This document shows positions 2,470-19,864 of a stretch of 64,000 bases of DNA, one piece after another (the first letter of the stretch is position 1; each line of letters begins with the position of its first letter). Source of the DNA: Stylophora pistillata (lineage: Eukaryota). Position numbers and translations under genes: made by a program. The notes below the pieces were generated by a model that saw nothing but the letters and a program-made list of their open reading frames with translations, did no database searches and had not been told where the DNA came from. Where the stretch lies: contig NW_019218092.1 of assembly GCF_002571385.2 (NCBI RefSeq), forward strand, positions 96,667 through 160,666, given 5' to 3'.

Positions 2470-5400
2470 GCAATGCAGAGTATGAACAGATTGGGGTCTT
2501 GTCATACTGAACTTTGCAGTCAGAATTCGATCAGTACTATTTCCTAAACAATAAATCTTTTCCAAAGGGCGGATTTGTGCTAAACAGAGGTGTTTTTGCA
2601 TGCGTTTTTAATCAAAGGTTTCTAAATCCTTTGGCTGTTCTTGAATAGTTTTCAAACGACGTGCAAAATTCGCCAAAAATTTGTAAACAGGTCTTATCAT
2701 TGGAATTTTAGGCATGGAAAACAGACCCAAGAAATAATATTTTCATTGCTTTTTAGATAGTGCAGGAATGTCATTTGCACTCACGGAGACAAGTTCAAAA
2801 CAAAAGATTAATTGCCATTCTTAACGATAACAGTTTGTTTTAAATGCAAGTTAAAAGTTTTGTTGATGTTGATCTATATCATGAGATAGATAATCGATTA
2901 AAGCTTATTTCCGGAAATGAACTGAGAAGAGGGTCTGCTAAACAGTGCTCAATTATACCGGACACATTTCATTTGTGCACAACAGGGCCTATCAGAATAA
3001 CACGACCAAGTGTTTTGAACTCTTTCGTGGAATTCATACTACGAATACACACGGCCGCCATGATTTGACTCCTGCGTGTACATTACTGAGCGCGTGCTTA
3101 CAATATAATACCTAGATGACACTCTCGTAAACAAGACCGGCGATCGTTTTGAACAGCAGGGCGAACCCTAAAGGCTTAAAGAGAACCTCTTTCAAACGTG
3201 TGTAACTATGGATCTTTGTCTATTTCACTTTCCTTGTCTCTAATTAGGGTGTGGTTTCATTCCTGGATGTGAACAGTGTAACGATGGACTTATTTGCAAG
3301 AAATGCAGACCAGTTTTCACCCCTGTGGAGTACGAAAGGAACAAAAAGAAGATCATTAGGTGCAGTCGCTCCTGTCCTCCAGGGTACAATCTCACATCTA
3401 CAAGGGAATATCCCAAGATATGTATTAGAACACAATTTGGTAAGTTGAATCAGTTGCATTCCAAGATCCTTTCTTGAACCTAAGACAAATTCTTGGACAT
3501 TTGGACAAGTCAGATATGCATGGTGGTTTATAGCTATCTGTTGGTACTTGGGCAGAGAAATGATGGTGCATCTCCATCAAGAGAAGATAAATCCTCACTG
3601 TGTCTGTTTTCTTGCTGTACAGGTCACAGTGATCGTGTTTCAGTTCCTGTGCTGAAACAGAGAACATAGATGGCTGTCAAATTATGACTTTATTAATGTT
3701 TGGTGAAATATACCAGATAAAATAGTCACGGAATCCATGCAGGTGAAGGAGAAGTTGATTTCACGTCTGTAGGTCACTGCAAGACTGGCAGCAACGTTTA
3801 AATTATAAAAGACATTTTCCCCAAACCCCCAGTTTAAAGGCAATGTATTTAGCCTTAAAGGTGGTCACCCTTCAGTTAAAAGTAATGATAACCAAAGCCC
3901 TTCATTTCCTTGAAAAGTCATTGTTCTGTTATTTAAGGTTGTTCTGCACGACACTGTGAAGACTGTCAATCTCACAACCCAGTTAGCTGCGCGAACTGCA
4001 GTCAGGGATACTATTCACTACAAAAAAGGGTTATGGGAAACGTGAAATGCGTAAAAAAGTGTCCAAATGGTTTCACCCCTAACGTGAACACTGATGGGAA
4101 GATGATTTGCAAAGATTCGCAGTCAAGTAAGAATGATAAAGTTAATAGTTAGTTATAGTTAGGTGGAGGATCCTTGGGGTGTTTAGCATTGCAGAGTTGC
4201 ACAAGTTATGCCCAAAAATCCTCGGACAAAGTTATGTTGTTTTTTTTTTTTGACAACTCTGAGTTGTTTAGCTCTCGATTTTTTGATTTGCGAATTGTCA
4301 ATATAAAGTGAAGAAAACGAAGAAGAAGAAAACTCAGAAGATGGGGAAGGGAGAACATGGCGGGCTAGCCGTTACATGATGCTTTTCATAAGGGAGATCG
4401 GTATTCATCAGAAACCACACAATTTTTATCTCTGCCATTTAAAGTGTTTAAAAAAATTACTGCTTACCTCCTTAACGTTTTGATATTCTAAATAGAGACC
4501 ATTAGGCTCGAAAAATTTTATCATAATTTCCAAGGTAATGAACTGTGGACGCCGGCATTTGAACACAACTTCTATCTTAATCGCAAACACAAAACGCGAC
4601 ACGTCGTTCATCAACAGCAACTGCGGCTATAGCTAAACCAGAAGGAAACATGATCAGAGTCAAGAGTTATAATTTTATATATACTTTTCAGGTTTCCGGA
4701 CCATACTTTTCCCTTTAATGATGGATTTGTCTTTTTACTGGAACTGGAGAGAAGTTAAACGTCAGTGAACATTAGATGATTCTCTCTAAAGATTGAATAA
4801 CTGTAGTGTATTTTTCAAGAACCCTGCTAACACACAGGCTGATTCAATTTTCCCATTTTCAGAATGCCAATCGTTTGTGCCTAACTGTGCTTCGTGCTTA
4901 GATAGCGTACGCTGTCGAAAGTGCAAGAGTGATCTGCATGTCTTCTTTAACAAAAGCGGCATGGCTTGTGTTCAGAACTGTCCGAAGGGCTTCGTCCCCG
5001 CCGACTCCAACTATTTCGGAAAGTACTGTAAAAGGCCACTTGTCGGTAAGTAATACAATCAGATCATCTTTCCTAAGATAAGCCCTCAATAAAATAATAG
5101 ACCTAGATTTATTCTGTCGATGACAACAATGTAGAGAAAAAATGGACTTGAATATAATAAACTCGTCAAAATTTTTTATGAAATAATTGTGATACCCCGT
5201 GACTAAGCGCACTTTAATTCGTCCAAAGACAAATTGTTTGTTTTACAGCTAGAACTAAGGTTATTCTAAGAAATATATCGCACTTTGCATGCTTTCACAG
5301 GCCAAACAGCCCGCATGGTAGGTTTGGAGAACGCTTGAGAATACTCTTCTTCTCCCAATACTACGCCGCCTGAGTTGTTACGCCAATTAGCGCATACACG

Positions 5401-18330: not shown

Positions 18331-19864
18331 TGCATACGGCTTTGCGTAAAGAAGGAAGCATGTTAGATACAAATTGACTTCAGGCAGCTAAAGAGCTAGA
18401 AAACCTTAGTACATGGTGAAATTTTTAGCTCTTTGGGTGTAATATTCAAGGAGAAATAGTCCTCAAAAACTGCAAAATTTCTGGGTGGCAAAAGCGCTAA
18501 TGAGCTCATACATTCTATGTAAAATTTTGAGTTTTTAAACCCGTGTTGCACAAAAAGTATTCAATGCATCAGGCTCGTATTCATTGGCCGAGTTAATCGT
18601 ACTTTGACCTTTCGATATTCAGAACTGATTTATTTTTAGCTCCATCAGAAACTGAATTGCTTATGCTAATGAGCCAAATATTGTAAACAAGGATTCCCCT
18701 ATACGCGAAGATAAAGAAAGATGAAGAACAAAGAGAGAGAGGGATGGGTAGCTGCTTTGAAACTAGAACCATTGCTCCAGTTACCTTTCAGACAATATCT
18801 TTCACGCTTTATTTTGATTTTTCAAATTGAACAAACAAAATGTCTAAACTCCCTTCCTGGACCATATAACGTCAAAGCCTGATAAATTTTACTAACTTTT
18901 GGATTTTTCTTTTGGTGTTTTGAGGGTGCTCGTATAACTGTCAGAAATGCTTAAGTCGCCGGGAGTGTAAGAAATGTAAGGAGGGCCTTTTTAATGTTGT
19001 GCGAGGTGGTAGACTGTTTTGCGTTTGGCACTGTCCTCGAGGATACATTCCTCAGGAAGATGAAGAGAAATCATGTGTGAAAGGTAAACCTAAATCACCT
19101 CCTATTCAGTTGTTACAAATTTATACCGAAAGCTTCCTACTATTTTTTCTTAAGCAAAAGTGCAACGTCTTCCGTGTGTTTAAAATAGTGCTATCGCATA
19201 ACTGTTACCGATCAAATTTAGAAGGGGCTTCACTTGAAAAACGGGTATTTTTTTGGGAATAAAATCTGCCTCAGCGCATCTGTTACAGAAATGAAACCAC
19301 GTGGTGGAATTGATTAGCCCGTTTTAAAGACCACTTTAGCTTACCCTGTGAACAGTCGGCACGTCGTTTTGTTACCCAAAGATCGTTAATTCGACAAAGG
19401 TCGACAAAGGTCGTTAATACGACACCTTTTACTGGCCCCTTTGTCAAGACTGATTTAAAGGTGTCTGTAATATTTCCCAAGAGTCTGTTTTACATTACTG
19501 TGTTACTGGCATTTTGAGTCTTGACAGGTTCTTTTACTTATCGAAATAGTTTGAATATATCAACAAAGTTGAAATGGTAAATTGGCCACCGTTACGATTA
19601 TAAAAGCTGACGTTTCGAGCGTTAGCCCTTCGTCGGAGCGATTATATCGTTTGTATAATCAATATCTTATATCAGAAGGGAGGGGGGGTAGAGGTTACAT
19701 TTACCCCGGAAGCTCTTAGGAGCCCCCTCCCCCTACCAGCGCCATTTTTGTAGTAACGTTTGTCAGACTTCACTGCACTTTAAACCTTATGCTTTTAACA
19801 CTTAATTGTCCTAATCAAGATTTGTTTAATTTCAGCAAATGACAATTTTTCTGGACGCTTATAA
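14148..19864 (+). CDS. Secreted FU Cys-rich repeat protein, paralog of gene 1 (gene 2), ~356 aa, 8 coding exons: 14148-14232, 15533-15712, 16082-16249, 16349-16489, 17168-17329, 18071-18217, 18925-19083, 19836-19864
   Basis: Signal-peptide exon MEGKALVICLLWAGFVANRPAAA, then six phase 1-1 exons, each one FU module (e.g. CSVNVPNCASCLDHRTCQRC...CVDNCPDDF). Ends ANDNFSGRL*. All junctions are GT-AG and in frame. Confidence 0.85.
17589..17880. repeat. Minisatellite, 4 perfect 73-bp copies (intron 5 of gene 2)
   Basis: Unit gaactttcccgttcgtgtaggagatagatc...gagattagtttgtt repeated identically. Confidence 0.97.
18285..18703. mobile_element. MITE with imperfect terminal inverted repeats
   Basis: tataggcggattc...ttgtttacatttttgctcatttgcata versus tatgctaatgagccaaatattgtaaacaa...gattcccctata. 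Confidence 0.7.
19545..19642 (-). mobile_element. Penelope-like pLTR fragment with a mutated minimal hammerhead
   Basis: Minus strand gctccgacgaagggctaacgctcgaaacgtcagc (19606-19640); the core reads CCGACGA instead of CUGANGA. Confidence 0.6.

What the first reader, a model, noticed from the sequence alone, without database searches (positions are those of the whole stretch)
4863..19083. Two tandem all-FU secreted proteins related by exon-level shuffling
Each module sits on its own exon flanked by phase 1 introns (except the last intron of gene 1). By eye: G1 ex4 (VPNCASCLD) matches G2 ex2 (VPNCASCLD); G1 ex5 (CVSSCPPGF..RGRRC) matches G2 ex3 (CVASCPAGF..HGTRC); the 6-Cys G1 ex6 (CKEGWYRV) matches G2 ex6 (CQDGWYRV) and ex4 (CQDGWVL); G1 ex7 (GRVC) matches G2 ex5 (GKVC) and ex7. 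So gene 2 lacks the RSPO-like N-terminal pair and has the terminal two-exon pair twice. Neither gene has a protease, TM or TSP1 domain. Inference: a family of multivalent hexa-FU ligands in which gene 2 could be a decoy or modulator.
Basis: partly seen in the sequence, partly recalled or inferred. Interest (0 to 1): 0.7.

Follow-up and report, generated by a model that had tools for sequence, protein, structure and literature searches.

The report
Ancient coral furin-repeat-only secreted proteins
Two neighbouring, spliced coral genes each encode a chain of six cysteine-rich furin-like repeats, one repeat per exon, whose exon sets were rearranged before corals and sea anemones split; they likely act as secreted binding proteins at cell surfaces or in the matrix, and they resemble R-spondin growth signals in build but lack most of R-spondin's receptor-binding residues.

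Summary
Observation confirmed and extended. Gene 1 runs 932-7684 (the finding starts at its exon 4), gene 2 14148-19864. Each has six FU modules on separate phase-1 exons. RNA reads splice them, and no splice joining the two genes was listed. New: the doubled pair already exists in an Exaiptasia protein and gene 1 has an Actinostola orthologue, so the rearrangement predates the coral-anemone split. Gene 1 has a conserved furin site (RxKR-WLW) and is basic (pI 9.3); gene 2 is neutral and about ten-fold better covered by reads in one RNA run. The R-spondin and decoy readings are weak. The N-terminal pair is no closer to RSPO3 than other FU pairs, and Asn51, Gln71 and the Phe clamp are missing. 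The coral ZNRF3-like gene keeps 2 of 4 ligand-contact residues. No exon skipping was seen. Best reading: an undescribed hexacorallian family of exon-modular secreted FU-only binders, labelled 'PCSK5-like' in databases; partners unknown.

The parts
932..1079 (+). Gene 1 exon 1: signal-peptide-like start, propeptide, furin-type site REKR followed by WLWG
   Evidence: the junction to exon 2 was not seen in the laid reads and rests on orthologues and the RefSeq model
3248..3439 (+). Gene 1 exon 2: FU1, 8 Cys, 18-residue hairpin with conserved EY[ED]R
   Evidence: spliced to exon 3
3938..4126 (+). Gene 1 exon 3: FU2, 8 Cys, invariant HNP loop
4863..5045 (+). Gene 1 exon 4: FU3, counterpart of gene 2 exon 2
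6143..6313 (+). Gene 1 exon 5: FU4, net charge +10 to +14 in four orthologues, counterpart of gene 2 exon 3
6474..6605 (+). Gene 1 exon 6: 6-Cys FU5
7002..7170 (+). Gene 1 exon 7: FU6, followed by the phase-2 intron
7666..7684 (+). Gene 1 last coding exon with stop codon; a contig of run X3 covers 7664-8480 as likely 3' UTR
14148..14280 (+). Gene 2 exon 1: signal-peptide-like start and spacer, no furin motif; reads end at 14078-14088
15533..15712 (+). Gene 2 exon 2: FU1
16082..16249 (+). Gene 2 exon 3: FU2
16349..16489 (+). Gene 2 exon 4: 6-Cys module of pair 1
17168..17329 (+). Gene 2 exon 5: 8-Cys module of pair 1
18071..18217 (+). Gene 2 exon 6: 6-Cys module of pair 2
18925..19083 (+). Gene 2 exon 7: 8-Cys module of pair 2; exons 6-7 give the best fold match to RSPO2 Fu1-Fu2
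19836..19864 (+). Gene 2 last coding exon with stop codon; AATAAA/ATTAAA-type hexamer at 20315

Best explanation
Both genes are spliced, separately transcribed paralogues of an old hexacorallian family that likely encodes secreted, non-enzymatic chains of FU repeats, which likely work as multivalent binding proteins at the cell surface or in the matrix. Shown: gene structure, splicing, lack of catalytic, TSP1 or membrane parts, the module map, and conservation in corals and anemones. Inferred step 1: the hydrophobic N-termini are signal peptides. Inferred step 2: gene 1 is cut by a furin-type convertase at RxKR, which exposes a conserved WLW end. Inferred step 3: its basic repeats (above all FU4) tether it to heparan sulfate or mesoglea, as the cysteine-rich domain of PCSK6 does. 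Inferred step 4: conserved hairpins and loops (FU1 EY[ED]R, FU2 HNP, the GWYR hairpins of the 6-Cys modules) bind a receptor or matrix protein not yet identified, probably not ZNRF3 or LGR in the R-spondin manner. Gene 2 would be the neutral, more abundant partner with its own targets. History: symmetric phase-1 exons let whole modules be duplicated and lost in frame; the doubled 6-Cys/8-Cys pair arose before corals and anemones split.
For: Structure and splicing. Module map ranks 1 of 46,656 under two scorings. Exaiptasia P0069 modules map in order to gene 2 e4, e5, e6, and Actinostola P0019 to gene 1 e5, e6; pair 1 of gene 2 groups with Exaiptasia pair 1 at 99/99. No DNA similarity is left between the coding exons of the two genes. 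The RxKR-[WF]LW site is in 15 of 15 gene 1 sequences that have an N-terminus. Gene 1 mature chain: pI 9.3, 65 K+R against 25 D+E; gene 2: pI 6.9, 48 against 48. The gene 2 model (mean pLDDT 76, 12 sequences) is almost all short beta-hairpins and matches RSPO and EGFR-type FU folds. A third gene on contig C638 has the same one-FU-per-phase-1-exon build plus a mucin-like stalk, which points to a surface or matrix role for the family. PMC9656567 (passages): the PCSK6 cysteine-rich domain binds heparin through a basic segment.
Against: No binding partner, tissue or localisation was shown. Secretion rests on hydropathy (19-residue maxima 1.5), not on a signal-peptide predictor. The test for a colinear run of four modules is modest: 18 of 720 permutations reach it under HHalign and 70 of 720 under BLOSUM. 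Gene 1 is barely covered in the seven runs laid on it, and reads at 2601-3120 plus a contig running unspliced into exon 2 hint at transcripts without the signal exon. The gene 1 model is poor (pLDDT 47).
Confidence: 0.5

Rival explanations
1. Proto-R-spondin: gene 1 (or the family) is the cnidarian relative of R-spondin and raises Wnt signalling by binding the coral ZNRF3/RNF43 ligase, with its basic repeats standing in for the TSP1 and basic domains.
For: Same gene build: medaka Rspo genes have one domain per coding exon (PMC3542121, passages), whereas the coral PCSK5-like tail packs up to 4-5 repeats in one open frame. Gene 1 FU1 is the only one of the 12 modules with the 18-residue hairpin of RSPO3 Fu1. 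All 6 RSPO1 chains align to gene 1 FU1-FU2, with ERN and HC..C..HN shared. The hairpin Arg is kept in 15 of 16 variants. The coral has a ZNRF3-like PA-TM-RING gene. Nematostella has a type-B-like LGR (PMC9545775, passages).
Against: Of the RSPO1 contacts S48, N51, R66 and Q71 (PMC3937510, passages) the window protein keeps R66 only; Gln is absent from that position in 16 of 16 hairpin variants. The F106/F110 clamp shows a first Phe in 1 of 7 variants and a second in 0 of 7. The coral ZNRF3-like protein keeps H102 and K125 but has K for Q100 and L for E127. RSPO2 chains align to other pairs. Against RSPO3, G1e2 and G1e3 each rank 47 of 145 modules and the pair ranks 44-77 of 140. PCSK5-like repeats score equally on RSPO1. 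One RSPO3 was 77th of the 90 profile hits. A genome search with RSPO3 hits only the PCSK5-like gene (biased towards long exons).
Confidence: 0.13
2. Structural role: the proteins are disulfide-rich components of mucus, mesoglea or skeletal organic matrix, like FU-repeat surface coats of protists or the FU segment of FRAS1, with no signalling role.
For: Module number varies from 4 to about 11 across relatives, with Gly-rich, acidic or mucin-like extensions. The nearest Atlas clusters are Giardia-VSP-like and other generic FU proteins (leads only, scores under 0.9).
Against: The six-module layout is fixed in all full-length coral orthologues compared, and non-Cys identity per module stays at 38-89%. 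Read depth is low for a bulk component. The processing site is strictly conserved. A term search of the Nematostella matrisome paper's text and 10 supplements found no 'furin'; in the supplements 'kexin' and 'PCSK5' were absent too (naming may hide members).
Confidence: 0.22
3. Ligand and decoy pair: gene 1 signals through its N-terminal pair, and gene 2, which lacks it, competes for shared sites through the four shared module types.
For: Gene 2 lacks FU1-FU2 and the furin site and shares the other modules. The genes are neighbours in at least two coral families (same contig and adjacent accessions in Orbicella and Pocillopora).
Against: Counterpart modules are only 30-40% identical, cysteines included, and differ in charge (G1e5 +12, G2e3 -1), so shared targets are doubtful. 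The gene 2 lineage has its own conserved surfaces and an anemone relative.
Confidence: 0.08
4. Annotation artefact: the exons are the tail of a PCSK5-type convertase, or one 12-module gene.
For: Databases name them 'proprotein convertase subtilisin/kexin type 5-like'.
Against: Each gene has its own signal exon and stop codon. Complete 372- and 397-residue proteins come from short Logan contigs. No GT-AG joint links the genes among the 15 listed (75 hidden). The upstream neighbours look like alpha-tubulin and annexin (recognised by eye). The modules have longer hairpins (13-18 residues) than the coral PCSK5-like repeats (mostly 10-12).
Confidence: 0.02

Closest known systems
R-spondins (RSPO1-4; PDB 4BSO, 4C8V, 9KB7)
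   Same: Secreted, non-catalytic, FU repeats each on its own exon; best PDB match by sequence and by fold (Z 10.3, rmsd 3.1 over 95 residues). The PDB lists showed no convertase cysteine-rich domain to compete with it.
   Different: Six modules (some with 6 Cys) against two or three; no TSP1 or basic tail; LGR clamp and Q71/N51 missing; no special score affinity. PMC12111769 (passages) reports no RSPO in cnidarians.
Cysteine-rich domain of PCSK5/PCSK6 (PC5A, PACE4) and the coral C235 multi-FU membrane protein
   Same: Tandem FU repeats; a basic segment binds heparin in PCSK6 (PMC9656567, passages); source of the database label.
   Different: No protease or P domain and no TM here; longer hairpins; one module per exon against several. 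A protease domain in the C235 gene itself was not checked.
Unnamed anemone FU-only proteins (Exaiptasia XP_020902681, Actinia XP_031563096, Nematostella XP_032225350, Actinostola KAK3730274)
   Same: Same module types, including the 6-Cys/8-Cys pair: the same family.
   Different: 4 to about 11 modules and different N- and C-terminal extensions; no paper in the library holds the six family accessions searched, which included the Exaiptasia and Nematostella ones.
FU segments of FRAS1, EGFR/insulin-receptor ectodomains, and Giardia VSP-like surface proteins
   Same: FU fold (EGFR-family domain IV Z 4-6; Atlas leads).
   Different: Those are parts of large multidomain or membrane-anchored proteins (established knowledge).

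Membership tests
R-spondin | Signal peptide followed by adjacent FU repeats | tested here: met
   (signal peptide judged by hydropathy only)
R-spondin | One domain per coding exon | tested here: met
   RSPO side from PMC3542121 passages. RSPO intron phases were not checked.
R-spondin | TSP1 domain and basic C-terminal tail | tested here: not met
   no TSP1; the chains end a few residues after the last FU module
R-spondin | Fu1 ZNRF3 contacts S48, N51, R66, Q71 | tested here: not met
   R66 kept in 15 of 16 variants; Q71 absent in all 16; N51 absent; S48 kept in P0006 but not in the window protein
R-spondin | Fu2 phenylalanine clamp F106/F110 | tested here: not met
   first Phe in 1 of 7 variants, second in 0 of 7
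R-spondin | Closer to RSPO than other FU repeats are | tested here: inconclusive
   No affinity to fish RSPO3 and an equal PDB score for the control. Only RSPO3 sequences were on hand for scoring, and the comparison set was picked by similarity to gene 1.
R-spondin | Binds ZNRF3/RNF43 and LGR and potentiates Wnt | not testable with these tools
   No unbroken coral ZNRF3 ectodomain was available: the 10 loci inspected of the 12 fetched were intron-bounded or cut short
PCSK5/PCSK6 proprotein convertase | Subtilisin catalytic domain and P domain | tested here: not met
   complete proteins
FU (furin-like) repeat proteins, PF15913 | Pfam score above the cut-off and beta-hairpin cysteine fold | tested here: met
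   49.9 and 55.2 bits against a cut-off of 28; model and fold matches

The most novel reading that the evidence does not exclude
This exon-per-module FU family is the surviving cnidarian sister of the R-spondin FU exons. Gene 1 is a furin-activated, heparan-sulfate-tethered ligand of the coral ZNRF3-like ligase or an LGR, so tuning of Wnt receptors by a secreted FU protein predates Bilateria and the capture of the TSP1 exon.
Probability: 0.13. Interest if true: 0.8.

Novelty: new variant of a known kind. Interest (0 to 1): 0.42.

Why it matters
The locus shows whole domains being gained and lost on symmetric exons, and the outcome then staying fixed across coral families. It exposes a secreted family that databases hide under a protease name. 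It also makes one open question directly testable. Cnidarians are reported to lack R-spondin, yet this coral has a ZNRF3-like ligase and FU-only secreted proteins built like R-spondin genes, so a single binding assay would show whether the R-spondin module has a pre-bilaterian forerunner. On present evidence it probably does not, which keeps the score moderate.

Tried and rejected
Single-module ML tree (60 rows, 56 columns): too short to resolve most pairings. Single-sequence z-scores gave mixed best hits; orthologue averaging resolved them. PDB E-values as proof of RSPO kinship: rejected by the control. ESM Atlas: no answer for the gene 1 N-terminal pair, and only generic FU leads under 0.9 for the Orbicella gene 2 protein. 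Gene 1 structure model too poor to use. No complex was predicted: no unbroken ZNRF3 ectodomain was on hand, and a gene 1-gene 2 job was not justified by neighbourhood alone. The joint 8542-19545 has AA..GA ends, 16 extra letters and lies in high-copy repeats, so it is not a splice between the genes. P0130 (334 aa) looked like an exon-skipped form by length but is truncated at the N-terminus. An apparent conserved Q100 in the coral ZNRF3-like gene is the intron's CAG acceptor; the real residue is K. Rfam found only a tRNA in 1-25000. Earlier scan notes held nothing relevant. Three paper look-ups by id were not held: two for the R-spondin family review, one for the PC5A/PACE4 cysteine-rich-domain paper, which I saw only as a reference title.
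Full report
Setting. The window lies at G000:C308:96667-160666 of a 398-Mb genome. The RNA runs that hold it are labelled coral metagenome or organism A. The two spliced models are identical to RefSeq proteins named Stylophora pistillata 'PCSK5-like' (399/399 and 371/371), so this is a stony coral.

Observation. All 12 FU exons start in phase 1, zero to three residues before the first cysteine. Eleven of 12 end in phase 1; the last intron of gene 1 is phase 2. Gene 1 exon 1 is 932-1079, picked out by matching orthologue N-termini. 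Gene 1 is 400 residues and gene 2 is 372. Raw reads from two studies show six gene 2 junctions, with 37-82 reads each in run X24. The exon 5-6 junction is not among the 15 rows shown (75 hidden), but the 372-residue Logan protein P0001 spans it. Gene 1 has 3-5 reads per junction in the same run for three junctions and 2 reads for a fourth (stricter likeness), so it is roughly ten-fold less covered there. No GT-AG joint links the genes among the rows shown. Each gene has its own start exon and stop codon.

Module map. Single-sequence scores were mixed. Cysteine spacings agree: G1e4 and G2e2 are identical (6,2,5,2,14,3,15); G1e5 and G2e3 alone end in 16,3,10; three modules have 6 cysteines; G1e7, G2e5 and G2e7 start with 3. 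Against this, the module tree supports only G1e6+G2e6 (99/93) and also an unexpected G1e3+G2e7 (96/91), and the colinearity permutation test gives 18 and 70 of 720. The map is therefore well supported by similarity and spacing and poorly resolved by the tree.

Age and direction. Gene 2's two pairs are less like each other (35, 35) than each is like gene 1's pair (51-74). The profile search of 1.84 billion representatives gave 90 hits. Among them are an Exaiptasia protein made of a signal and 6-8-6-8 modules, an Actinostola orthologue of gene 1 e4-e6, and Actinia and Nematostella relatives. The first three Exaiptasia modules map in order to G2e4, e5 and e6 (scores 71, 88, 59); its fourth is incomplete and was not scored alone. 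In a tree of pairs, gene 2 pair 1 and Exaiptasia pair 1 split from all others at 99/99 (long branches flagged). The doubling thus predates the coral-anemone split (about 500 million years, recalled). The AU test rejects neither 'doubling inside the gene 2 line' (p 0.41) nor 'gene 1 with pair 2' (p 0.28). Gene 2 may be a duplicate that lost two exons and doubled two, or an eight-module ancestor may have lost different exons in each copy, or gene 2 may be a chimera of gene 1 exons and an Exaiptasia-type gene. The tandem arrangement is kept in Orbicella and Pocillopora (same contig, adjacent accessions). No skipped FU exon was seen in the listed junctions or in 33 compared sequences, a subset of those stored. 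Among the named hits I checked, family members come only from corals and anemones; most other hits are unnamed.

A wider family. Contig C638 holds a third gene with four FU modules, each on a phase-1 exon, a mucin-like tail and a dead FU-like stretch in its first intron. Beside it is a likely second secreted cysteine-rich gene. By contrast the PCSK5-like FU tail on C235 packs up to 4-5 short-hairpin repeats in one open frame.

Is it R-spondin? For: the gene build (PMC3542121, passages); the 18-residue hairpin of FU1; alignment of all 6 RSPO1 chains to FU1-FU2; Arg at the hairpin in 15 of 16 variants; and a ZNRF3-like gene in the genome. Against: there is no TSP1; N51, Q71 and the Phe clamp are missing (residues from PMC3937510, passages); the coral ligase has K and L at Q100 and E127; RSPO2 aligns to other pairs; the PCSK5-like control scores as well on RSPO1; and against fish RSPO3 the N-terminal modules rank 47 of 145 each and the pair 44-77 of 140. 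Caveat: only RSPO3 was available for scoring. The proteins are built like R-spondin but fail membership. PMC12111769 (passages) found no RSPO in cnidarians.

How it likely works. The gene 2 model (pLDDT 76, pTM 0.51) is a string of beta-hairpin FU modules. Gene 1 carries RxKR-[WF]LW in 15 of 15 N-terminally complete sequences and is strongly basic, most of all in FU4; RxKR as the furin consensus is established knowledge. By analogy with the heparin-binding cysteine-rich domain of PCSK6 (PMC9656567, passages), I infer that gene 1 is processed, tethered near its source cell, and presents conserved hairpins to a receptor or matrix partner, while neutral gene 2 spreads further and has its own targets. 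Secretion, cleavage, tethering and partners are all untested; confidence 0.5.

Literature. Ten searches showed no description of this family in their listings, and six accessions occur in no held paper. I read passages only of PMC12111769, PMC3937510, PMC9545775, PMC7521923, PMC7791878, PMC6079037, PMC9656567, bioRxiv 10.1101/802215, PMC3542121, PMC10491879, PMC6626399 and PMC12549020 (plus a term search of its 10 supplements). Subscription papers and other supplements, such as coral single-cell and proteome tables, were not seen and may list these genes.

Verdict. A real, old, apparently undescribed exon-modular FU-only family; a new variant of a known kind; interest 0.42. The proto-R-spondin case stands at 0.13.

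Noticed in passing
G000:C638:12457-18411 (L035, L036): Third family gene: signal and basic peptide, four FU modules each on a phase-1 exon, TEEPT-type mucin tail; a FU-like stretch with an in-frame stop at about 14356-14493 in intron 1. A likely second secreted cysteine-rich gene follows at about 21.4-25.3 kb.
   Followed up: partly
G000:C185:115900-126300, minus strand (L010, L011): ZNRF3/RNF43-like PA-TM-RING gene; keeps H102 and K125 but has K for Q100 and L for E127 of the R-spondin-binding groove. PMC3937510 (passages) names only C. elegans PLR-1 as an invertebrate homologue.
   Followed up: partly
window:2601-3258: Reads in run X24 and a contig in X11 cover the end of gene 1 intron 1 and run unspliced into exon 2: a possible second start or retained intron, without a signal peptide.
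   Followed up: no
window:5030-5033: Two reads across gene 1 exons 4-5 look one A short, which would shift the frame; allele, error or tool convention.
   Followed up: no
window:26906-27949 and 30329-31306: Two intronless rhodopsin-family GPCR frames in tandem.
   Followed up: no
window:10000-11250, 22160-22876, 52778-54040: A LINE-like fragment between the two genes (by eye; no Pfam hit), a GIY-YIG Penelope-like fragment, and a reverse-transcriptase fragment.
   Followed up: no
window:5353-5958 and 17588-17882: Intronic tandem repeats: 124-base unit, 4.9 copies; 73-base unit, 4 identical copies.
   Followed up: no
window:7475-7640, 8471-8740, 19542-19641: Short high-copy repeats with very deep RNA coverage and fold-back joints.
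   Followed up: no
window:24813-24885, minus strand: tRNA gene.
   Followed up: no
L013, L014 (20 kb upstream): Alpha-tubulin exons and an annexin-like exon, recognised by eye.
   Followed up: no
G000:C1:934300-938000 (L039): FU repeats interleaved with SRCR-like domains, recognised by eye, in one gene.
   Followed up: no
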